Below are positions 45,301-59,799 of a stretch of 64,000 nt of DNA, piece by piece. Source of the DNA: the human T2T-CHM13v2.0 reference genome, Homo sapiens; NCBI RefSeq assembly GCF_009914755.1, contig NC_060930.1; one strand, given 5' to 3'. How positions within the stretch are numbered: the first letter of the stretch is position 1; each line of letters starts with the position of its first letter. Both the position numbers and the translations under genes were made by a program. Below the pieces are notes generated by a model that saw only the letters and a program-made list of their open reading frames with translations, searched no databases and was not told where the DNA came from.

Positions 45301-45962
45301 ACCTCCAGAGCAGGCAACAAAGATTAGACCCTGCCAGGAGGGAAGCACACCAGATAAGGATGGAGAATTATCTTGACAAGGGGCATGAAAAAAATTACTG
45401 GATGACAAAAAAAATACATCACCAAAGATCAATAAAACATTTGTAGAACACCCCACGGAGATGTGATCTGCCCACTGTACAGATCAGAAGAGCTTCCTTT
45501 CTTCTTCTGCGTCAGAAAATATCTGCTTGCTGGTCAATGTCCAGAGGATGATGTGAAGATGGGAAAGGACATTTTCCCTGGACACCATTTCTGAAGTTAC
45601 ATCTCTGTGTGTGCTTTCATTGGTGATGCCATTTCTCTTTGCTTTCTCTTCTTTTCTTGGGAAGACTTCTCTGTCTACATTTGTATATTTATTTGGCTGA
45701 CTTTCCCTGAATTTGCTGCCTGACTGAGTAATTTATTTCAAAATAACTACATGGCAAGCTGTTTTATGCTGTTTAACTAAATCCATTGATTGAAGCATTT
45801 TCTGACACCTGGCCGTCCACATGGAGATTTCTCTTTTCCAGTCTTCCTAGTCTGGAAAAGACGTCACCATCCACAGGAAGTGTTTGTCATTGTACCCAAT
45901 CTGGTCTCAGTAGCACCATTTACATACCAATAGTGTAAATCTCTGTGTTTCTTATAGACACA

Positions 45963-46338
45963 TGATATGGTTTGGATTTGTGTCCCCGCCCAAATCTCAT
46001 ATCGAATTGGAGAAGCCTGGTGGGAGGTAACTGGATCATGGAGGCAGATTTCCTCCTTGCTGTTCTCATGACAGTGAGTGAGTTCTCATGAGATCTGATG
46101 GTTGAAAATTGTGTGACCTTCCCCCTTCACTCTCTCTCTTTCTCCTGCCACCATGTGAAGAAGGTGCTTGCTTCCCCTTGGTGTTCTGCCATAAATGTAA
46201 GTTTCCTGAGGCCTCCCAGTTATTCTTCCTGTTAAACCTGTGGAACTATAAGTCAGTTAAACCTCTTTTCTTCATAAATTAGCCAGTTTCAGGTAGTTCT
46301 TTATAGCAGTGTGGTAATGGACATAATGGACTAACACT
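45963..46338 (+). mobile_element. MSTA/THE1-type MaLR solo LTR with internal splice donor (GTAAGT at 46197)
   Basis: tgatatggtttggatttgtgtcccc...ctttatagcagtgtg...ggactaac. Confidence 0.85.
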
Positions 46339-48648: not shown

Positions 48649-50160
48649 GGAGGAGAAACTTCTCATCTGCTAAATGGGGCTCCCTTGCAGCTCTGAGGTT
48701 CTGAGATCTTAATGTGTGCACTGTGTCTTCAGTGCACACAATACCACCCAACACAAATTCAATGCAATTGATTCCCCAGCAGTTGAACTCAATCACAATG
48801 CCACTGGCCTTGTTCTAAAAATTAAAGAACTGCTGCAGGAAGGGCCCTATAAATTTTGTCATCATAACTGCCTGAGCCAGAGATGTGGGGTGTTCCCTGC
48901 CAATCAGGGCAGAACAGGTTGACATGGGCCAATGAAGCCCAGAGGTCCTGGAGGAGATGAAAGTCACACAGGCCCCCTCAGAGATATCTGCCAACGTCAG
49001 TGTTGGGGTCTCTTCTGAAGGACGCTGTCTGTGAGATTGGGAAAGGTACCCAGCAGCCTTGTTTCTGTGGCCCAATACTTTTTCCACCAGACTCCTTCAC
49101 GTGCCTAATTTGGGACATGGTTTCTGAGCTGCAGGTGTTGCCCACTCCAGCCCAGAGATCCCAGAACATCCTGCAAGCTCAGACGCAGGATAAAGGGCCA
49201 CAGGAGCAGGAGCCTCCTCTCTCTGGGCAACTTCAGACTGTTTCCCCACTGTGCTGTCCTAGAAGGGGCTGATGCAGTGAACAGAGCCCTTGGGGCAGGT
49301 GGGGCCTGGGCTCAGCTGCAGAGACCAGGGGACGGGCTGGACCACATTCTCTTTCTGCCATATGCAGCTGCCTTACACTACAAGAGGGGGAAGAAGGGAG
49401 CTGAGGAGGTAAAAAGAGAAAAGACCCAGAGCCAGCGGGCTTTGTCACATCGGCTGTGACAGTTAAACCTGGCATTACTCGTAATTGCTTACATTTACTA
49501 CACATTCATACAGAGGCCATGCTGTGGCTAGGCGTCTCTGGGCTAAGAATGTCTTATTCATTTAGAACTAGTACCTCGGACTCTGATTACGGGCCTTGCT
49601 GCGTGTAAGGAACAGCACTGCTTTAGCATGAAGCCTAGCCTATTGTCAGTGCTCAGAGAGCTCTGACACCAACAATTGGTTTTCCTACGAAGAATCACGT
49701 AATATTTGGGTTATAGAAGCAGGGCAGTGCTAACTGGATGTCCTGAAAGGAATGGACCTGGCATAAGAAGGGATGGAGAGCAGAATTTGAAAAGCATCCA
49801 ATCCTGAAATTGGGCTGGAGGGAGCATGTCCCAAGCCTGTTAGGGACGGCAGGAAATTCATGACCAGTATGAAGGTGAAGCTGGGCACCTGCAGGCAGGC
49901 TGGTCTGCTCTCTCTGCTGTGACCCTCCTCAGGGCAGGCTGTGCTGTCAACAGGTGTTGTGCAATGCCAAGAACCCATGAGAATTCTCACTACGCCAGGG
50001 TTTTGAGGCACCCCTGTTCCCAGGTTCCTTCCTAGAACCCTGGTCGCCTTGGGATGACTGGGGGATTCTAGTTGACTACCCAAGGAAATCTGAAGCTTGG
50101 GAAGTTTGCAATGTTAAGTCTCGGTCCAGAGTCGGACCTGGCTCCGCGCCTGTCTGGCAG

Positions 50161-50320
50161 CAGCAGCAGCAATCCCTATCCGGGTCCAGAGCCCTGCCCA
50201 GTGGATACTGTGTGGTGTTTCCACAAAGTTGCATCTTTGAGCACCTCACAGAGAATCTGGAGCCTCTCAACCAGGACAACGTGAGAAAAAAATCTGAAGA
50301 AAAAGGCCCAGGTGCTTGGG
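50161..50320 (+). pseudogene. MS4A-like exon A (N-terminal cytoplasmic tail)
   Basis: SRALPSGYCVVFPQSCIFEHLTENLEPLNQDNVRK/NLKKKAQVLG|gtaaga vs MS4A6A SQPVPNETIIVLP...AEKPEPTNQ..LKKHLHAEIKVIG; no ATG; +1 in the A7 run at 50286-50292. Confidence 0.75.
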
Positions 50321-51489
50321 GTAAGAACAGCCAAGCAAAGGGCAGAGGCTGAGTGGGTGCCAGGAGGACACTTTGTCACTTTGGAGACAGAGCCTTTGGC
50401 TTAAGGAGTTCCAGGCTGCTCTGGAGGCGTCGGGGGAGGCCTCTGGGACCACCTAGTCATTTTCCGCAAGAAAGTAAGAGATTTCCCAGTTTTGTGCTCA
50501 TGGGGAGCATTCACCTGAGATATAAAACTTTGGCTGCTTAACTCATTTTAAGGGAATAATAACATATTTGCATACACTTTATTTGGAGGCAAAAGAAAAA
50601 AAATAGTCTGTTGAATAAATTATTCTAGATTTTACTTCCCAGGGATTTTTTTTTCTTTCTAAAAATTATAGACAATTCATCTCCTATTCTCCCTTCTTGA
50701 GAAATTAACCATTTGAAAACAGATATGTGCCCTTAGTCTGCCTTCCAATATCTCTCATACGATCCATGATTTTTAAAGAAATACAACTCCATTGCATGAC
50801 CAAAGGGAGGAGGGGGAAATGGAAAGAAGGAGCTGGGCAACACAAGCACCAGGGGGAAGGGCCTGGGGCCCAGGGCCAGCACCTCCCTACTTGTGGGAGC
50901 CTCAGCTGTTCCTTCAATCCCCAGGCCACACCTAACCTTGGGTTGAAAAGTGCTTTCTGGGCTGACTCCGCTGTTAGAACAGGTAGGAGGTTGCTTGGTA
51001 AATGTTGCAAGAATGTGAACTCTTGTGGTAGAAATATTCTGAGGCTGATTCAGAGGCTGCCTGGGACCCCGTCACAGCTCTGGGGTCTGTCTCCCACAAG
51101 GAGCCATGCCCCGAACAGAGGTACCTGTGTCCACTCATCCTGCAGAGAGTGGGAGCCAGTTCCTGCCCCACCTGCTGTCTCCTAAGTGCTTCTTTGTGCC
51201 CAGGAGGGAGAGGGAGCAAAGGGCATGGGAACCTCCTGGGCTGTGACCAGTCATCACCTGGGATCCCACTGCCACAGCTCAGAGCTAAAGACAGAAACAC
51301 CCAGCATTTCACTGCACGCTGATCTCAGCCAGCACTGGGAAGGGCTGGGAGCATGTCCTGCGTGCTTGGTTTCCCATGCCCCTGAGACGCTTTTCCTGCT
51401 TCCGCACTATCTCCTTGGGTTGCACAGAGAGTTCCAGCACTCCGCTTCCCTGGGGAAACTGACAATGACTGGCCCTTGATTGACTCACC

Positions 51490-51940
51490 CAGTGAGTTGG
51501 TTTCCTGGGGCCATGGTAACAAACTACCACAAACCAGATGGCTTTAAAAAAAAAAAACAAAAAAAAAACAAAACAAAACAGAAACTCATGCTCTCCCAAT
51601 TCTGGAGGCCAGAGGCCATAGTCTGAAATCCAGGTCTGGGCAGGGCCAGGCTTTCTCTCCCAGCTCTGGTGTATCCTGGCAGTCCTTGGCTCTCCTTGGT
51701 TGCAGCTGCATCCCTCCCACCTCTGCCTCCGTTTTTGTGTGACATTCTCTCTGCCAGCATCTGCCTGTTTCTCTTGTCTTGTACCTACACCAGTCATACT
51801 GGATTAAAGGCCCTCCCTGCTCCACTCTGATCTCATCTTAACTGACATCCCAATGACATCTACAAATACCCTATTTCCAAAGAAGATCACATTCCCAGGT
51901 ATCAGGGGTTAGGACTTGAACATATCTTTCTGAGGTCACA
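51490..51940 (-). mobile_element. MLT1B/C LTR in an MS4A-like intron
   Basis: ggtaacaaactaccacaaacc...ctggattaaaggcc...ccctatttccaaa. Confidence 0.75.
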
Positions 51941-51965
51941 CCAGGTGACCCTTCTTCCCTAACAG

Positions 51966-52100
51966 ACCATCCAGATCCTCTGTGGCTTTGCAGTTATGAG
52001 CATGGGGATCCTTTTGGCATGTACTTCCTTTCCCTGTCACTTTGGCCCAGTGGTTCTCACCTTGGTGAGGTCTGGATACCCATTCGTAGGAGCCAAGTAT
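51966..52100 (+). pseudogene. MS4A-like exon B (TM1 to start of TM2), 135 nt, open
   Basis: aacag|TIQILCGFAVMSMGILLACTSFPCHFGPVVLTLVRSGYPFVGAKY|gtgagt; about 24/45 identical to recalled MS4A6A TIQILCGMMVLSLGIILAS...AYPFIGPFF. Confidence 0.93.
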
Positions 52101-52811
52101 GTGAGTAGGATGGGTGTTCATGGAGGGTGGTCTCTGGGATGGAGCAGGGCACAGACAACTGATATGCTACCTAGCAATGTCTCTGTGGAGAGCAAAGATG
52201 CAGGAATGGAACTTGTTTTGAGGGCAATCAGCCAGGAGTGAGAGAAGGCCTGGCAGGAGAAGGGGTTTTGCCAATGGGAACAGAATTGATCATCTGGCTC
52301 AAATATCAGTTCTTCCAAAATCCTCATAGTGCCATCCTCGAGGGCCCTGGGAGCCCTGCAGCTTCTCTCTGGGGTGACAATAGCATGTGTAGCCTCAACA
52401 GGGACACTATAAGAATAAAAGAGTGTGCTATTACTATTTATGCCATGATCACAGGAATACCCAGGACTGTCCCTGACACACTGGACATAGGGTCACCCTA
52501 CTTCTCCCTAAGTTCAGGTGACACAAGGAGTAGGAGTGAGGTGGGCAGACAGCAAGTGAGAAATGGGGTGGACAGGGCACACAGTGGGGTGGCCAGGCTG
52601 GTGCATTTGTGGCCCTGTCTATGGGGCCAGCAGGACCAGTGGGGTCAGTAGAGCATATACTGAGCTTGAAGAGGTGGCATGGAGCACTTAGAAGCTCTAT
52701 CTGCTGCTTGTCATCTCTTGGCATGTGGAAGGCCTTCTGCAGAGTTACGCTCCAGACATAGCCTCGGAGTCCTGAATATCCCCCAGGCTCCTGGAATCAA
52801 GGAGTGTCTTA

Positions 52812-53165
52812 GACGGCTTGAGCTGCTTTAACAAAAATACCATAAGCTGGGTGGCTTATAAACAGCAAGCATCTATTACTCACAGTTCTGGAGGCTGGAA
52901 GTCCAAGATCGTGACACCGACAGATTTGGTGTCTGGTGAAGGCTGTTGCTTGTTCATAGATAGAGCGTTCTCGCTGTGTCCTCATGTGGTGGAAGGGCAG
53001 AGGAATCTCTCTGGGTTCCTTTTATAAAGGAAGTAATCCCATTGATGAGGGCTTCACCCTTACGACCTACTCACCTCCCAAAGACCCCACCTCCAGATAC
53101 CATCGCATTGGAGGTTAGGTATTTAGCACATGAAATCTGGGGGCAACAGACATTCAGGCCACAGC
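52812..53165 (-). mobile_element. MLT1A-type LTR
   Basis: aacaaaaataccataagctgggtggcttataaac...cacagttctggaggctggaagtccaagatc. Confidence 0.8.
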
Positions 53166-53977
53166 AAGAAGCTTCAGGAGAAAGCTTTCAGTCTTGTGAA
53201 ATGTGAATGAGGCTTTCCCACAGCCTAGACCTGTCTTCACGCCCCAGCCGCAGCCTCTTGCATTCACGGTGGCTTTTGAGCATCCTCTGACCACTGAGTC
53301 ACAAACCTCCCTGTTCCCTCTCTATCTGGCTATTTTCTTGGTAGGACCAGAAAAACTTTTTTTTATAGTCTTGCCACCATGCCATGTAGTTTTCGTACAT
53401 TGCAGCTATTTCAAATTACTGCATTACCACAGAACACTTTTTCTGTAATAACCCAGAATCAACAGTTTTTTTCTAGCTGTTAACCTGGCCTCAAAATCTT
53501 CCCTTTATTTGGGCCCCCTTTTTCTTCTGTCCTTAACTCTGACTCTGGTAGAGCCCATGGAACTGACAGTTCAAAGCCCGCGTGGCTTTTCTCTCCCCAC
53601 CACAACATCTTCATCTAAATAGAGTCTTGTAACATTTACCTGCCCTCTCTCCCTTGAAAATCACTGTTCCCTGGTCCCTGTTGGGGAGCCTGGGCCTTAA
53701 GCCCCTTTGTCTTTGCCCTAGAAGAACTTCCTCTCCAGCTGAGTCAGGTTCTCATGAGATTCTAGGGGTGGCTTGGCCTCCTATATCCACTTCCCCCAAC
53801 ATTGGCCTGTAGCCACATATGGCCTGGACTTTGGCCCAGCTTCCAGCATGCCCAATAATGTCAGCCCTGTGGGGAAGTTCCTGGAGGTGTACAAGGACGT
53901 GACAATTCAGTGGTAGGGACATCGGGGTGCTTGTTCATGTGGAAACTGACTTTACCATTTTCCTCTTTTCTGAGTAG

Positions 53978-54034
53978 TTTATCATTTCTGGATTGCTGTC
54001 TGTCATTTTGGGAAGAAAATCAAACAAGCATCTG
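53978..54034 (+). pseudogene. MS4A-like exon C (TM2), 57 nt, open
   Basis: gtag|FIISGLLSVILGRKSNKHL|gtgagt; carries the MS4A hallmark FIISG(S)LS. Confidence 0.92.
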
Positions 54035-56122
54035 GTGAGTATAGGAACAACAGTGCCTCACTTACTAAAAAGAGACTTTAGCGGAACCTCATCCAGTTGG
54101 ATCTTTCCAAGGTTCAGACAAAGGAACTGAACCCCAGGTTGCTGACAAGTGTCCTTTGGTCAGTGGCCCTGTGGAAGTACACAGGGCCCACTGATCTGGG
54201 GGACACCTTTCATGATCCTCATTTTGAAGAGAGTCCTGTACCCTCTCCAGGCTCTGGGTGGCTTTATGGGAAAATTCTGCCTCATCATGACACCCTTTGG
54301 TGTTCACTGACCACCGGGGTTCAGGTCCTTGGTGAGCACAGGGGAAAGAGGACAGTGAGAGCATGGGCTGTTAGTTGTGCACCACAGCCTGGGTGAGAAA
54401 AGCATCAATCAAAAGAGATGAGCCTTGCTGGTGGGGGCCAGGAAGGGTGCAGAGTGAAAAGGGGGTGTTCAGTGATGGGTGCACATCTGATTGACAAACT
54501 TTTGCAGAATCATTTCCAGGCCTTTCTTAGGAGGCTAAGAGGCATGGGTTGGGGGACAGAGATGGGTATGGTGGAGATTCTGGTGACCTGGGATTTGGGG
54601 GTCTCCCTGTCCTGACACAGAAGCTGCCAAGAAACTGGCAGCCAAGCCTCAAGGTGGCAGTGCCAGGTTTGGACACTGTCATTCTCTCAGACCTCCCTCA
54701 AAGGATCAGATGCCCTTCTTCATCCCCACCCTCAGCCTCCCCTGAGCCCTCCAGGAAAGCAGCCTGTGTGGATCCCCTAAACAAGGGCAGGAGCACCAGC
54801 CCTACAGAGCAAGCAGCAGCTGGGTGAGGCAGACGGCGGCACAAGGTGGGGACCACGGTGTTCCAGGGCCACTTAGGCTCCTAGGAAATTCACCCGCCAC
54901 CATCCTCAGGGACCTCTTCTTTGAAAAAAAGGGACTTTCTCAGAACATTCTGACAACACGAGTTGTGAATCCCTGGGGCTGTATGGAGAAATGGCCCACG
55001 ACCTTTTTCCATCTCTTCCCCCATCACTGCCCAGCTCTGAGATTGAGCCCCTGGGAAGAGGGCCCGGATCTTTGCCAGAGGCTGCTGGGCATACCTGAGC
55101 ACACGTGCCATGGGCTGTTTGTGACGGGCTGGAACACCTAGCCCAGGTGTCCCAGAAGCCACCACAGACATCAGCCTATTCCTCCCCTGGTGTTGGTCTT
55201 TGAAAAGTGAGTCTGGACACTGCAAAACTGGAATCCAGGTTTCCTACTTTCGAGGGGAGGTAGCCCCCCATGGCGCAGCTGTGATTCTCAGCCTACCTCT
55301 GGGCCGTGCCCCAGCCGGGATCTGAACATCCACCCTCGGCCCCAGGTGCTGTTGCCCCCACACTGAGCCCTCGTACCCCATGCTCCCTGGCCCTCCTGCC
55401 AGGGCACCCTTTTCACAAAGTGGAGTGGATGAAAAGAACAGGAAAGAGCACCAACCCTGCTGCTGTCCCCATATGACAGAGGCTGCTGTGGGGGCATCTG
55501 TTGTACTTGGGTGAGCAGGCCCCTTGGCCTCGAGCTCTACCATGCAGGGGTGCTGCAGACAGAGCCAGGTGATAGGAAAGAGCATGTCTGGGAACCCACC
55601 TGATGACAGCCTCAGCTCAGGATGAGGCAGGAGGCCTCTGGCTAGGCTTAGGGGAGATGGCTGGAGGAACCTCCTCAGGGTGCCAGTGGACTGGGTAAAG
55701 CCAGCAGGGGGCTTGGAGGTCAGGGAAGCTGTGATTTATCAAGCACTGTGGGCATTGCAATATTTTCTCTGTTCGGTTCAGTCCAATGGGACATCAGTTC
55801 TATACATATCTTCCTCTTCCTCTAGCCCTGCTCAGTCCTGGGTGGAGAAGCTACCAGAACCACATCTCCTGTCTGTCCCACCATAAGTCTCTGCTTCATT
55901 CACGCTTTCATGTGTCGTTCATCAAGCAAGCATTTGCCTGTAGGCTTGGGGAGCTCTGAGAGGGGTTGAGAGTGAACAAAATTAATCAAATCGTATAACA
56001 GAAGAGGAAGTCCCATCCTGCTGAGGATCCTGGATGTGAGAACCTGCTGCTGGCCTGGTGGGATCGTGGTGCCCCAGGAGCATGAACTGCTCAGGAGCAG
56101 ACCCTGACCAGATCCCCTGCAG

Positions 56123-56325
56123 GCCTGGAACAGCCTGATCAGCAGCCTCCTAAGCCCCATGGCTGCCACAGTGGGCCTCATTGTCCTTCCCTATCACCTA
56201 GCCGGGGTGTTCCCAGCTGCCAGACAGTGCCAACTGGTGGTGCCTGCCCATCAGTGCCCCAAGACAGCCACTACTTTTCGAAGAATGAGACCACCAGCTG
56301 CTTTGTGGCCAGCTCCAGCTTACTG
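56123..56325 (+). pseudogene. MS4A-like exon D (TM3 and extracellular loop), 203 nt, frameshifted
   Basis: gcag|AWNSLISSLLSPMAATVGLIVL...PAARQCQL, then in the shifted frame HYFSKNETTSCFVASSSLL|gtgagt; both loop cysteines retained. Confidence 0.88.
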
Positions 56326-57319
56326 GTGAGTATTTTTAGGTAGAATCTTCCAGACTAGTGAAGTCTTTGAGATTTTCTGCTTCTTGTTCACTGCTTCCTT
56401 CTGATGTGGACCATGCGGAAAGAGGCAGAACACAGGAACCCACACATGGGAGAATAGCAGGCATTTGACTGGACTGTGCCAAAAGAGTTGTTCAAGTACA
56501 ATATCAAGCAAGACTGTAGTTGCAAAAAGACATAACCAACAACTTGGTTTCAATTTGAGCACCTTAATAAACAAACTGATTTAACTGTCATAGTCTCAAG
56601 GGATGGGTTTTTCCAAGCAAGAACTCTAGGGTCAGGGTAGCGAATTGCTCAAGAAAGGCCAAGAGCTCAGGGAGACATAGGAACCTCATAAACAGGGTGG
56701 CCACAGGCTGGCAGTGCCCAGGTTCAGCCAGGCAAGAGCCACAGGTCAAGGGAGGCTGCAAGAGGCTAAATCCTAATTCCACCACATGCACAAAAATGGA
56801 TGGGATGGCCAAAAATGACCCCAAAAAATCAGGAAACAAATACGGAATGGGCTTTTTAATTGTTGTTTGCAATCAGAACTTTATGAAAATGACAGAATGT
56901 GGTTTCGCATTCTCTGTTGCATTAGAGCCAGTCTGAGCATCAGTATTTGCTCTAAAATGTGTTTAGTCAATAAAGTCAAGAGAACATGTGTGTGGAACAC
57001 TGAGAAAAGAAGGCAGAGGAAGTTTGCATTCCTGCAGCCATAGAGGGGGATATTCTAGGGGTGGAGAGGCAGCAGGCAGGGGGAATGTGTGCACAGCCTG
57101 GCCGTTGTCCCATCCCCTCATCGCTGGCTTCAGGCCATCCTCCCATAGATGGAGCAGCTATAATGGGAGTGGAGGGTTGAGGGGCAGGGGAGGCATCTGC
57201 TGAGCGGCTGGATGGGGTTTGTGTAGTGGGTTAGGATGAGCTCCTCAGAAACCAGCCTGAGCTCTCTGGCTCAGGAGCTTCTCAGGAAGAGCTGAGAAGC
57301 GGCAACCCCTGCCTGAGGG

Positions 57320-57770
57320 GTCCTTGTGTTCATTTCCCATGGCCACAATAACAGAGGACCACAAACTGGTGACTGAAAACAACAGAAGTGAATTCCTTCA
57401 CAGTTCTGAAAGCAAAGTCCAAGATCGAGGAGTCGGCAGGGCCGCTCTTTCTCTGAAGGCTCTAGGAAAAAACTCTTTCTTGTCTCTTCCAGCTTTGGGG
57501 AACTCCAGGCATTCTTTGGCTTCTGGACACGTCTTTCTAACCTCTGTCTCCATCCTCATGAGGCCTTCCCCTCTGTTTGTCTCTGTGTCCTGTTCTCTTC
57601 TTATAAGAACACCAGTTATTGCATTTAGGGTCCACCCTAAATCCAGGATGATTTCACCTTGAGATCCTTAACTAATTGCACCTACACAGACCATATTTCC
57701 AGATAAGGTCATATTCTCAGGTTCTATGTAGACATGAATTTGAGGGGGGACACTAACCCACTATAGTCAC
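57320..57770 (-). mobile_element. MLT1C-type LTR
   Basis: cacagttctgaaagcaaagtccaagatcgagg...ccaccctaaatccaggatga. Confidence 0.78.
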
Positions 57771-58401
57771 AGTCTGTACAAATAAATTCTAGATTCTGCC
57801 CACCTGTGGCCTTACCTGTTCTACTTGGAAGTCATTGTTCCATGGAAGGTGACCCAGGGAAGCAGAATTGTTCTCCTCCTCAGGCAGATAGCTCCTGGGG
57901 ACTGGCGTGAGAATTAGCAACTGTGCCAGCACATCACTTTGATTGGTCAAGGTGCCCCTTGCTGCCTCCCAGCCAAGCCAAGCAGGCCCACCCCAGGGAG
58001 CATAGGTGGGTAGCAGGTGCTGGCGCTCAGTTTACAAAGGAAGGCCTTCTGCCTCACCACCTCTGTGGACCTGCAAACCGCCCTAAGGGGTGAGTGGGAA
58101 GTCCCCATCTTACAGAAGACGAAATTGAAACCCAGACAGGCGGAGACTCTCCATGGAGGCCAGATGAATGAAGAGTCAGGAGGCTCAGCTCAACCTTGGG
58201 TGTCACCTGCCACCTGTACTGCTGTCCCTGGAGTGGCCCAGGATACTAGGATATGACACTGTCTCCCAGATCATGAGCAGGTTGAGTCAGGTACGAGGGA
58301 AGAGGAGCCAGCAGATGACACTGTCTAAACCCATCTGGTCATCTCAGGAAGGCAGAAGGGTTGGCCAGTCCAGCACAGACCTCGTGCATCCTGCATTTCA
58401 G

Positions 58402-58503
58402 AGGATCCTGTCTGTGATGCTCCTCTTCACGGCATTGGAGCTCAGTGTCGCTATCCTTTCTTCTGTCCTCTTGTGAAAAAAGACCTGTTCAGATGTCCTC
58501 AGG
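58402..58503 (+). pseudogene. MS4A-like exon E (TM4), 102 nt, nonsense codon
   Basis: ttcag|RILSVMLLFTALELSVAILSSVLL*KKTCSDVLR|gtgaac vs MS4A6A GTLSLMLICTLLEFCLAVLTAVLRWKQAYSDFPG; TGA at 58474-58476 where Trp is expected. Confidence 0.9.
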
Positions 58504-58924
58504 GTGAACCTGCTGTGCCGTGGGCTCTGGGGCCTGGGTGGTGGCACAGGGCATGGTCCTGGGGCCAATGGCAGGTGGTACTAAGGTCGACCCATGAATC
58601 TTGACCTTAGTCGAAGTCGACAGGTTTTGTTGAGTGAGGCAGCAGCCGGCAGAACAGGATGACAGCAAGTGCCCAGGGTGGAGGAATCACAATAGGAAGC
58701 GATGGGACCAAAGAGAGCACATCACACATCTGCTCATTTAGCAAAGCAGGAAACAGGCTAAGGTGCAGAAGCCCTCTGGTCCCTGGAACCCTCAAGTTTT
58801 TATATTTGTGTATCCCTTGTCTTTTGTTTCAAGATATTTTTTAATTTCTCTGGTTTGATTTTTTGGAGATAAAAGGCCTTCCACTCAGCGTACAAGGCCT
58901 GTTCACTTGCTTTGTCCTCTCCAG

Positions 58925-59196
58925 AATGTGTTTCCTGACCCAAAGTGACACAGTGATCACCAGCATGCCCCAGGCAGCATTTGCTGACACCGTCCTGGAG
59001 ATGAACAAGGAGTGCACCCTTAGTGTGGGGGCAGAGAGAGAGAGAGCACGTTGTCTGCAGGAGTCAGCTGAATGATCTCACAGACCCCACCTGCTGGGCT
59101 CTTCCATTTTATCACAATTATTCCGCCTGTTCACGTGCAGAGAGAACACTTGGGGCAGATTTTAAGACCTTAGAGAGTAATTTGTTTACAAATAAA
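58925..59196 (+). pseudogene. MS4A-like terminal exon F with polyadenylation signal
   Basis: tgtcctctccag|NV/FLTQS cf. SVLFLPHS (frameshift near the exon start); shifted ORF stops at 59075; AATAAA at 59191-59196. Confidence 0.65.
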
Positions 59197-59799
59197 ATAT
59201 CTCTTTGATGATGTATTTGGATTCCATGTCATTTTGCCACATTTCTCTTAATTTACTGGACACCAACAATGATATAAAAGTTAAGATTTTAGGAAATGTA
59301 GAAAATTTCTAAATAAAAATCAAAAAAGAAAATAAAACAACAAAATGAAGAGCTGCCTGGGAGAGATGAACCCATGGTCCCCGTCTTCACGCTAAGATGC
59401 AAAAGAGCAGAGCTTCCAGCTTCCAACTGGAGCTCCCACACAAAATACTGGGGAAATCTTCCTCCTTCCAACAATGGTCTTCCTATTGATCCTGAGACCT
59501 TGCTGGCAACCAGCCGTGTCTCTGCCCCTCTTTCTGTGCTCTCGTGACTCATCCCAGCTTCTCTCTCTGTGCCCCTTTCTTGTTCCCCTCTGCCCATTTC
59601 TCTTTTTATCTGAATCCCCAGATGCCCCTGCACAATCTGAGTGTGCAGAGTGGCCCAGCCCTCCCTAGGAAGGGAAAGCACTGGCCCCTTGCTTGGAGAG
59701 AAGGCAGAGACTGCTCTCCCACAAGACTGTAGTGCCCTAAAACCCCCTGATCAGCTCACACCTTGTTTCCTGGTGGCCAGGCCAATGATGAGGTTCACC

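What the first reader, a model, noticed from the sequence alone, without database searches (positions are those of the whole stretch)
50161..59196. Hidden six-exon MS4A6/MS4A7-like (CD20-family) gene relic in the extended MHC
Seen in sequence: six short segments spread over 9 kb among LTRs, each bounded by AG/GT, join in order into a four-TM MS4A protein: ...EPLNQ..KAQVLG | TIQILCGFAVMSMGILLA...SGYPFVGAKY | FIISGLLSVILGRKSNKHL | AWNSLISSLLS...QCQL...TTSCFVASSSLL | RILSVMLLFTALELSVAILSSVLL*KK | NV.FLTQS. Three internal exons are 135, 57 and 102 nt, all phase 0, matching the MS4A6A peptide blocks as I recall them. The ORF track captures only fragments. Established knowledge: human MS4A genes cluster on 11q12. 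I know of no MS4A annotation on 6p22; my unverified recollection is that only a lncRNA (LINC02829) is annotated here. Inference: an old, intron-containing, translocated MS4A paralog that stayed functional for a long time and may still be intact in other mammals.
Basis: partly seen in the sequence, partly recalled or inferred. Interest (0 to 1): 0.93.

Follow-up and report, generated by a model that had tools for sequence, protein, structure and literature searches.

The report
Dead MS4A gene beside human MHC
The stretch holds the broken human copy of a CD20-family (MS4A) membrane-protein gene that is still whole in horses' relatives, bats, a manatee and an elephant shrew, and a human long non-coding RNA reuses three of its six old exons in whole or in part.

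Summary
Six + strand pieces (50161-50320, 51966-52100, 53978-54034, 56123-56325, 58402-58503, 58925-59221) all keep AG/GT borders. Together they read as a four-helix CD20/MS4A protein. Four pieces hit Pfam CD20 in order. A profile of intact relatives hits only these six pieces in the whole window.

It is not a copy of chr11 MS4A6A or MS4A7. In a tree it falls (100/99) inside a separate clade of intact 245-288 aa proteins from donkey, white rhino, four bats, a manatee and a sengi, and the branching follows the species tree. So it is a unitary pseudogene, the human ortholog of an unnamed eutherian MS4A lineage.

Lesions found:
- no start codon at the aligned place
- frameshifts in exons 1, 4 and 6
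- TGA in place of an invariant W in exon 5

LINC02829 reuses exon 3, the exon 4 donor and the exon 6 acceptor with its poly(A) signal. Its first exon lies in a dispersed repeat.

"Translocated" could not be tested. One donkey gene model that joins this gene to a MAS-like receptor exon hints at shared linkage. Eight paper searches found no description. Interest is moderate.

The parts
50161..50320 (+). Exon 1 remnant (N-terminal cytoplasmic tail). Acceptor AG at 50159-50160, donor GT at 50321-50322. Frame change near 50284 in an A-run. No ATG at the aligned start (codons 50179-50187).
   Evidence: profile positions 4-39, only 3.0 bits; 15-17 of 43 residues identical to donkey, rhino and manatee proteins; the only ATGs in 50050-50330 are at 50054 and 50111.
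51966..52100 (+). Exon 2, 135 nt, phase 0/0, open. Encodes helix 1, the first loop and the start of helix 2.
   Evidence: Pfam CD20 27.9 bits, E 2.8e-6. Clade profile 66.1 bits. 31/45 identical to donkey P0028, 57% to the chr11 60.13 Mb gene and 47% to the chr11 60.34 Mb gene.
53978..54034 (+). Exon 3, 57 nt, phase 0/0, open. Rest of helix 2. Identical to LINC02829 exon 3.
   Evidence: 13.5 bits; 19.4 bits; 13/19 identical to P0028. Hub annotation gives the LINC02829 exon as 53978-54034.
56123..56325 (+). Exon 4, 203 nt. Helix 3 and the extracellular loop with two Cys. One base missing near 56252-56253 shifts the frame. The donor is the end of LINC02829 exon 4 (55826-56325).
   Evidence: (37.1 bits in one frame for profile 112-158, 18.8 bits in another frame for 156-181).
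58402..58503 (+). Exon 5, 102 nt, phase 0/0. Helix 4. In-frame TGA at 58474-58476.
   Evidence: the TGA aligns with TGG of the chr11 paralog; 21.1 bits; W>X at a column invariant in 9 intact proteins.
58925..59221 (+). Exon 6: C-terminal tail and 3' UTR. Two bases missing at about 58931. AATAAA at 59191-59196. Identical to the last exon of LINC02829.
   Evidence: 7.5 bits, profile 215-246, in the shifted frame; 13-14 of 32 identical to donkey and rhino. Hub annotation.
45962..46327 (.). Dispersed repeat of about 365 bp that holds LINC02829 exon 1 (46132-46196) and its GT donor.
   Evidence: 8754 candidates genome-wide, 40 scored, 83-88% identical; a 74% match on chr11 in the opposite orientation to the gene matches..
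52803..53166 (.). Interspersed repeat in intron 2.
   Evidence: many copies at 74-80% identity.
57325..57755 (.). Interspersed repeat in intron 4.
   Evidence: two of the 40 scored rows, 72-73% identity.

Best explanation
The interval holds a unitary pseudogene: the dead human ortholog of a distinct, so far unnamed eutherian member of the MS4A/CD20 family of four-helix membrane proteins.

The ancestral gene had six coding exons, with internal exons of 135, 57, about 204 and 102 nt, all phase 0. It existed before Afrotheria and Boreoeutheria split. It is still predicted intact in perissodactyls, bats and afrotherians.

On the human lineage it lost its start codon, acquired frameshifts in exons 1, 4 and 6, and acquired a TGA in exon 5. 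It can no longer make the protein.

Its splice sites and poly(A) signal survive. A transcript that starts in an upstream dispersed repeat (LINC02829) splices into exon 3, the exon 4 donor and exon 6. So the lncRNA is in part the transcribed remnant of the gene.

Shown: family, exon structure, lesions, clade membership and overlap with the lncRNA exons. Inferred: that the gene tree means orthology, that the gene already lay beside the MHC in the ancestor, and that the loss is tens of millions of years old.
For: - Pfam CD20 hits 4 ORF pieces in collinear order.
- A profile of 8 intact relatives hits only these exons: 6 of 3643 pieces of the whole window, both strands.
- Exon sizes 135/57/102 are identical to those of the chr11 60.13 Mb paralog. 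The TGA sits opposite that paralog's TGG.
- Four hydrophobic peaks fall where the four helices should be.
- Searching exon 2 against 1.84 billion representatives gave 26 hits at E <= 0.001. The best spliced ones are 70% identical, against 57% for the best human paralog.
- A profile search gave 10 proteins at 354-448 bits, then a drop to 243 bits. Nine carry names, from 8 species: Equus asinus, Ceratotherium simum, Rhinolophus ferrumequinum, R. sinicus, Hipposideros larvatus, Pteropus medius, Trichechus inunguis and Rhynchocyon petersi.
- The four of these that I scanned have a full-length CD20 domain, 99-111 bits.
- Tree of 27 rows: relic plus these proteins 100/99. Inside, Afrotheria versus (human relic, (Perissodactyla, Chiroptera)) at 93/86 and 95/87. 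MS4A6-type (97/94, holding the human chr11 60.13 Mb gene) and MS4A7-type (100/100) rows are separate.
- The rhino protein searched back against the human genome hits chr6 exon 2 best: 61%, against 46% and 43% on chr11.
- Unspliced ORFs P0005 and P0007 read from exon 2 into an intron and, by eye, resemble the human intron read-through.
- No second copy of this clade turned up in the human genome.
Against: - The orthologs' chromosomal positions are unknown, so orthology rests on the tree and reciprocal best hits alone.
- The intact relatives are automatic gene models. I have no DNA for them and no test of selection.
- With fragmentary outgroup rows added, support for relic plus clade fell to 84/98, and the program warned of long-branch joins.
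- The relic's end branch (0.58) is no longer than the root-to-tip paths of the intact relatives (about 0.47-0.77), so the tree does not itself show decay.
- Differences from the chr11 paralog are spread 38/26/43 over the three codon positions in 98 codons. That leaves little trace of past constraint on that long path.
- The exon 1 match is weak.
- The genome-wide PF04103 scan did not list the locus at E <= 0.001.
- No primate, rodent, carnivore or artiodactyl member was returned. That may be loss, or it may be the limits of the word-indexed search.
Confidence: 0.85

Rival explanations
1. It is the same orthologous lineage, but the copy reached chr6 only on the primate or euarchontogliran lineage. 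The intact orthologs of other mammals would then lie in or near the canonical MS4A cluster.
For: All other human MS4A exon matches lie on chr11, apart from the CD20-like matches on chr7, chr12 and chr1. Zuccolo et al. 2010 state that all human MS4A genes cluster on 11q (PMC2826416, Introduction and sections 11-12 read). I have no positional data for the orthologs.
Against: The donkey model P0039 joins exons 1-3 of this gene to an exon encoding helices 1-2 of a MAS/MRGPR-like receptor. That exon is 35% identical to human MAS1L residues 70-128, E 3e-5 pairwise. On human chr6 the relic lies between MAS1L and GPR53P (hub table). I recall no such receptor inside the 11q12 cluster, and I did not test that. 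The match is weak and no better to the chr6 receptors than to MRGPR-type places elsewhere.
Confidence: 0.1
2. It is a young duplicated pseudogene, made by a segmental copy of MS4A6A or MS4A7 from 11q12 to 6p22, and has no orthologs of its own.
For: The exon sizes are identical to those of the chr11 60.13 Mb gene. Four collinear blastn matches, including short intron flanks, reach 62-74% identity.
Against: Ungapped exon identity to that gene is only 68%, 61% and 59%. Introns do not align beyond about 80 nt. The relic is closer to the donkey and rhino proteins (51% and 49% overall, 69% and 62% in exon 2) than to any human paralog (57% and 47% in exon 2). The tree separates it from the MS4A6 and MS4A7 clades.
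Confidence: 0.02
3. The locus still encodes something in humans: either a short peptide from the open exons 2-3, or a function of LINC02829 as RNA that explains why all ten splice dinucleotides are kept.
For: Exons 2 and 3 are open. 10 of 10 splice dinucleotides and the poly(A) signal are kept. RefSeq lists a curated transcript (hub table).
Against: The RefSeq transcript skips exons 1, 2 and 5, so it cannot encode the helices in frame. At 5-10% neutral change per site, keeping 20 bases has a chance of roughly 0.1-0.4, by my own arithmetic. So their retention is not significant. The three papers that mention LINC02829 appear only in a search listing of titles and abstracts, and none concerns its origin.
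Confidence: 0.03

Closest known systems
Predicted proteins named 'membrane-spanning 4-domains subfamily A member 6A/6B/6C/6D-like' in Equus asinus (P0028, P0003), Ceratotherium simum (P0030), Rhinolophus ferrumequinum (P0029), R. sinicus (P0031), Hipposideros larvatus (P0033), Pteropus medius (P0032), Trichechus inunguis (P0006) and Rhynchocyon petersi (P0018)
   Same: Same clade (100/99). Collinear over all six exons. Shared motifs at the exon 2/3 and 3/4 joints and in helix 4. 35-51% identity overall. The relic keeps 33 of the 44 columns that are invariant in nine of these proteins.
   Different: They are open reading frames of 245-288 aa with a complete CD20 domain in the four scanned. The human copy has five disabling lesions. 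Their names are automatic and place them under MS4A6, which the tree does not support.
Human gene at chr11 60.124-60.133 Mb, minus strand. It is MS4A6A by my recollection of the map, and it falls among proteins that sources name MS4A6.
   Same: Same family and same exon plan (135/57/102 nt, phase 0). It is the nearest human paralog, with 57% identity in exon 2. W stands where the relic has TGA.
   Different: It sits in a different clade, is intact, and lies on chr11. Its exon 4 is 210 nt against 203. Nucleotide identity is only 59-68%.
Human gene at chr11 60.336-60.344 Mb, plus strand. It falls in the clade that sources name MS4A7.
   Same: Same family. It is the second-nearest human paralog, with 47% identity in exon 2. 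In the rooted but weak tree, clade X groups with it (94/95).
   Different: It forms a separate clade (100/100) and is intact.
CD20 (MS4A1) and Fc epsilon RI beta (MS4A2), the members with solved structures
   Same: The clade profile matches 8y81_B at E 1.5e-19 and 6vja_C at E 8.6e-16. Both have four helices and a Cys-bearing second loop.
   Different: They are distant paralogs. The relic's exon 2 alone reaches only E 0.04.
Unitary pseudogenes transcribed as lncRNAs (a known kind; recalled, not searched)
   Same: It has introns, disabling mutations and intact orthologs elsewhere, with no working copy in the genome. Its old splice sites are reused by a non-coding transcript.
   Different: I found no annotation of this one as a pseudogene. 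The hub's RefSeq table lists only LINC02829.

Membership tests
MS4A / CD20-like family (Pfam PF04103) | Significant match to the CD20 profile | tested here: met
   Exon 2 alone scores 27.9 bits, exactly the curated cut-off. Three further exons hit collinearly at 13.5-19 bits. The clade the relic belongs to scores 99-111 bits over profile positions 1-156 in the four proteins scanned. It was not listed at E <= 0.001 in the whole-genome scan.
MS4A / CD20-like family (Pfam PF04103) | Four membrane-spanning helices with cytoplasmic ends | tested here: met
   Kyte-Doolittle windows of 19 residues on the read-through (X at each break) peak at residues 49-67, 84-102, 113-131 and 179-197. These lie in exons 2, 2/3, 4 and 5. 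Orientation in the membrane was not tested.
MS4A / CD20-like family (Pfam PF04103) | Shared exon plan: phase 0 exons, with one helix or helix pair per exon | tested here: met
   The 135/57/102 nt exons are identical in size to those of the chr11 60.13 Mb paralog. Exon 4 is 203 nt against 210.
MS4A / CD20-like family (Pfam PF04103) | Location in the 11q12 cluster (stated for all human members in PMC2826416) | tested here: not met
   The locus is on chr6 (the hub gives chr6:29326001-29390000 for the window). The cluster matches lie at chr11 60.01-60.42 Mb. Location is a habit of the family, not part of its definition.
Unitary pseudogene | Introns kept (not a processed copy) | tested here: met
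   Five introns of 1.6-2.1 kb (one of 0.4 kb), each with GT...AG.
Unitary pseudogene | Disabling mutations | tested here: met
   No ATG at the aligned start. Frame changes near 50284, 56252 and 58931. TGA at 58474-58476.
Unitary pseudogene | Intact orthologs in other species | tested here: met
   Clade of 10 intact rows plus the relic at 100/99, with branching that follows the species tree. Reciprocal best hit. The models are automatic predictions.
Unitary pseudogene | No working copy of the same lineage in the same genome | tested here: met
   Exon 2 and the rhino protein, searched against the whole human genome, find only the chr6 copy and then the chr11 paralogs at 43-56%. The first-look filter limits sensitivity.
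Unitary pseudogene | Same chromosomal neighbourhood as the intact orthologs | not testable with these tools
   No mammalian genome other than the human one can be read here. The only hint is the donkey read-through model P0039 with a MAS/MRGPR-like exon.
MS4A6 subfamily (as the automatic names imply) | Falls within the clade that holds the human chr11 60.13 Mb gene and the mouse, pangolin and bear MS4A6-named proteins | tested here: not met
   The MS4A6-type rows form their own group (97/94), apart from the relic's clade (100/99). In the weaker rooted tree the relic's clade sits with MS4A7-type rows (94/95).

The most novel reading that the evidence does not exclude
Eutherian mammals had, and many still have, a further MS4A gene lineage that has never been named or studied. 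It would lie outside the canonical MS4A cluster, in the extended MHC among MAS-like and olfactory receptor genes. It is intact in bats, perissodactyls and afrotherians and was lost on the lineage to humans. LINC02829 is its transcribed corpse. The human MS4A family would then count one more locus, on 6p22, and the gene's function could be studied in horse or bat.
Probability: 0.45. Interest if true: 0.6.

Novelty: new member of a known kind. Interest (0 to 1): 0.5.

Why it matters
MS4A genes (CD20, the Fc epsilon RI beta chain, and the MS4A4/6 Alzheimer-risk cluster) are treated as one cluster on 11q12. This locus shows a separate old lineage of the family, with a human remnant beside the MHC.

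It explains the origin of part of an otherwise uncharacterised lncRNA. It documents a gene loss on the human lineage for a gene kept in bats, equids, rhinos, a manatee and a sengi. It also flags that automatic names ('MS4A6B-like' and so on) hide a distinct ortholog group.

The practical consequence is small, because the human copy is dead.

Tried and rejected
Explanations rejected:
- Chance ORFs. Collinear profile hits rule this out.
- Processed pseudogene. Introns are present.
- Recent copy of MS4A6A or MS4A7.

Searches that led nowhere or fell short:
- DNA search of 50100-59300 against the human genome returned only interspersed repeats among the 40 rows scored of 7666 candidates. It therefore says little about chr11 similarity. 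A local blastn against chr11 60.11-60.15 Mb was needed.
- The first homolog search, with exon 2 in the word-indexed library, found only a 100% identical 81 aa fragment, P0001. The full HMMER scan was what found the relatives.
- The ESM Atlas did not hold P0006.
So MS4A4A, MS4A4E, MS4A6E and the distal cluster genes are not in the trees.
- A search with the chr11 paralog's exon 2 did not complete.

Analyses that did not settle their question:
- Rooting with fragmentary human rows for three other chr11 genes gave long-branch warnings and did not settle the order of the MS4A6, MS4A7 and clade X splits.
- A first codon-position count for exon 5 used wrong coordinates. It was redone.
- Dating the loss: 8 of 41 invariant residues are changed and there are 3 frame-shifting indels. 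By my own rough arithmetic that suggests tens of millions of years. I do not regard it as a result.
- An ATG followed by two codons that match the relatives' first three residues lies at 50111-50119. It is about 70 nt too far upstream and out of frame, so it stays a possible old start, unproven.


Full report
**What is in the sequence**

Reading the DNA around them gives six segments:
- 50161-50320
- 51966-52100 (135 nt)
- 53978-54034 (57 nt)
- 56123-56325 (203 nt)
- 58402-58503 (102 nt)
- 58925 onward, with AATAAA at 59191-59196

All five donors are GT and all five acceptors AG. According to the hub's RefSeq table, 53978-54034 is exactly LINC02829 exon 3. Position 56325 is the end of its exon 4, and 58925-59221 is its last exon. 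So the lncRNA reuses three of the old exons wholly or in part, and skips exons 1, 2 and 5.

**Is it more than chance?**

I submitted 8 ORF pieces to Pfam. Four hit CD20 (PF04103) and no other family convincingly, at profile positions 4-47, 41-62, 59-104 and 120-154, which is the order in which they lie on the DNA. Exon 2 alone reaches 27.9 bits, exactly the curated cut-off. The other three score 13.5-19 bits. The two frames of exon 1, the second frame of exon 4 and exon 6 gave nothing.

A profile built from eight intact relatives (A1) was run over all 3643 stop-to-stop pieces of the 64 kb window on both strands. It found six pieces at E <= 1: exons 2, 3, 4 (two frames), 5 and 6 (exon 1 did not reach E <= 1). 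They are in order on the + strand, at 66.1, 19.5, 37.3, 19.1, 21.1 and 7.7 bits. There is no second copy in the window.

Against this, a whole-genome scan with PF04103 listed 14 exon matches at E <= 0.001 and none is the chr6 locus. The 14 lie on chr11 at 60.01-60.42 Mb, on chr7, on chr12 and on chr1. The exon 1 match to the clade profile is only 3.0 bits.

**The nearest human paralog**

Exon 2 searched against the human genome finds itself first. Next come chr11:60131122-60131250 (-) at 56% and chr11:60336355-60336483 (+) at 47%. That is 3 matches from 4 candidates.

After fetching chr11 60.00-60.20 Mb, tblastn matched every relic exon, in order, on the minus strand between 60133018 and 60124321. 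The exons of that gene are 147 (coding part), 135, 57, 210 and 102 nt. Three sizes are identical to the relic's, and TGG stands where the relic has TGA. By my recollection of the map this gene is MS4A6A. In the tree it sits among proteins that sources name MS4A6.

Identity is low. In ungapped codon alignment it is 68%, 61% and 59% for exons 2, 3 and 5, with differences spread 38/26/43 over the codon positions. A local blastn finds only the four exon neighbourhoods, with up to about 80 nt of intron flank, at 62-74%. This is not a recent segmental copy.

**Intact relatives elsewhere**

The word-indexed library gave only an identical 81 aa fragment. A full HMMER scan of 1.84 billion representatives with exon 2 gave 26 proteins at E <= 0.001. 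The best spliced ones, P0002 and P0003, are 70% identical in exon 2. That is closer than any human paralog.

Their sequences share the relic's own features at the exon 2/3 and 3/4 joints, in helix 4 and in the exon 6 tail. Two others, P0005 and P0007, are unspliced ORFs. They run from exon 2 into the intron and, by eye, resemble the human intron read-through.

Searches of the named library with P0006 and with alignment A1 gave 10 proteins at 354-448 bits, then a drop to 243 bits. Nine of the ten carry names:
- Equus asinus (two isoforms)
- Ceratotherium simum
- Rhinolophus ferrumequinum
- R. sinicus
- Hipposideros larvatus
- Pteropus medius
- Trichechus inunguis
- Rhynchocyon petersi

All are called 'MS4A 6A/6B/6C/6D-like' by NCBI's pipeline. 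The four that I scanned have a complete CD20 domain, 99-111 bits over profile 1-156. The clade profile matches the solved Fc epsilon RI beta and CD20 chains at E 1.5e-19 and 8.6e-16.

**Tree**

I made a read-through of the relic inside a script, with X at each break. I aligned it with 25 of the 43 proteins fetched, plus the human chr11 60.13 Mb gene. Eighteen proteins were left out: P0001-P0005, P0007, P0008, P0010, P0012-P0016, P0019-P0021, P0026 and P0039. These are fragments, unspliced ORFs, repeats, chimeras or isoforms.

IQ-TREE (LG+C20) gave these groupings:
- The relic with the ten clade rows, at 100/99.
- Inside that clade, manatee plus sengi versus the rest.
- The human relic as sister (93/86) to a perissodactyl plus bat group (95/87).
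- MS4A6-type rows (97/94) and MS4A7-type rows (100/100) as separate groups.

The gene tree thus follows the species tree, which is what orthologs do.

The rhino protein searched back against the human genome hits chr6 exon 2 best, at 61%, ahead of chr11 at 46% and 43%.

Adding fragmentary human rows for three other chr11 genes as an outgroup kept the clade (84/98) and put it next to the MS4A7-type rows (94/95). The program warned of long-branch joins, so I leave the order of these splits open.

**Lesions**

These are measured against nine intact proteins.
1. The aligned start codon is absent. The only ATGs in 50050-50330 are at 50054 and 50111.
2. There is a frame change in the A-run near 50284.
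3. One base is missing near 56252-56253. Exon 4 is 203 nt, where 67-68 codons are expected.
4. TGA at 58474-58476 replaces the second of two invariant W residues. The first W is changed to L.
5. Two bases are missing at about 58931.

Of the 44 columns invariant in the nine intact proteins, the relic keeps 33. The changes include C>Y at the end of exon 2, L>P in helix 3 and G>R at the start of exon 5. Overall identity is 121/238 (51%) to the donkey protein, 117/239 (49%) to the rhino protein and 35-47% to the rest.

The relic's end branch (0.58) lies within the range of the intact lineages' paths, so the tree does not itself date the loss. Counting the changed invariant residues and three frame-shifting indels suggests tens of millions of years. 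That is my own rough arithmetic, not a result.

**Where did it sit?**

No tool here reads other mammalian genomes, so 'translocated' is untested.

One hint exists. The donkey model P0039 has exons 1-3 of this gene followed by an exon whose last 60 residues align to human MAS1L residues 70-128, at 35% and E 3e-5 for that single comparison. Against the human genome that part hits MRGPR-type places on chr11 and chr19. More weakly, it hits chr6:29413080-29413241 (inside GPR53P by the hub's coordinates) and chr6:29350359-29350523 (inside MAS1LP1).

On human chr6 the relic lies between MAS1L and GPR53P. A read-through model that joins this MS4A gene to a MAS-like receptor fits such a neighbourhood. 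The match is too weak to name the receptor.

**The lncRNA**

LINC02829 exon 1 (46132-46196) lies in a dispersed repeat of about 365 bp at 45962-46327. The genome search found 8754 candidates and scored 40, at 83-88% identity. From memory it looks like a MaLR-type solo LTR; no tool named it. The likely picture, which I infer, is a repeat-driven transcript that falls into the surviving splice sites of the dead gene.

**Literature**

Eight searches found nothing on an MS4A gene or pseudogene at 6p22.
- The three papers that mention LINC02829 were seen only as a search listing.
- Zuccolo et al. 2010 (PMC2826416; passages and sections 11 and 12 read) state that all human MS4A genes cluster on 11q.
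- The bat and cat MHC papers (PMC4753418, PMC2453318; term passages only) do not mention MS4A.
- I did not open supplements.
- GENCODE could not be consulted.

**Verdict**

The locus is a real, well-preserved unitary pseudogene of a distinct MS4A lineage. It is a new member of a known kind, of moderate interest.

Noticed in passing
window 50111-50119: An ATG followed by two codons gives the same first three residues as several intact orthologs. It lies about 70 nt upstream of where the alignment expects the start, and in another frame. A (CAG)4 run and a 9 nt word repeated at about 50122 and 50183 lie in between. It may be the old start codon, displaced by an insertion.
   Followed up: partly
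window 45962-46327: LINC02829 exon 1 and its donor lie in a dispersed repeat of about 365 bp with thousands of copies at 83-88% identity. From memory it looks like a MaLR-type solo LTR. The lncRNA's promoter is probably repeat-derived, not the old gene's.
   Followed up: partly
protein P0039 (Equus asinus model): A gene model joins exons 1-3 of the intact donkey ortholog to an exon encoding helices 1-2 of a MAS/MRGPR-like receptor. It is either a read-through of neighbouring genes or an annotation artefact.
   Followed up: partly
L009 = G000:C1:154391708-154394830: The PF04103 scan of the human genome gave a 35.5 bit match (profile 1-41) on chr1 inside a 356 aa open frame. This lies away from the known CD20-like places on chr11, chr7 and chr12. 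I did not identify the gene.
   Followed up: no
protein P0001: An 81 aa ORF in a public library is identical to the human exon 2 plus intron read-through, apart from one residue in the intronic part. Five member sequences were listed for it. I did not trace it.
   Followed up: no
proteins P0026 and P0015: Some library proteins are chimeras or intron read-throughs of MS4A4-like and MS4A6-like pieces. Automatic MS4A models in public sets need care.
   Followed up: no
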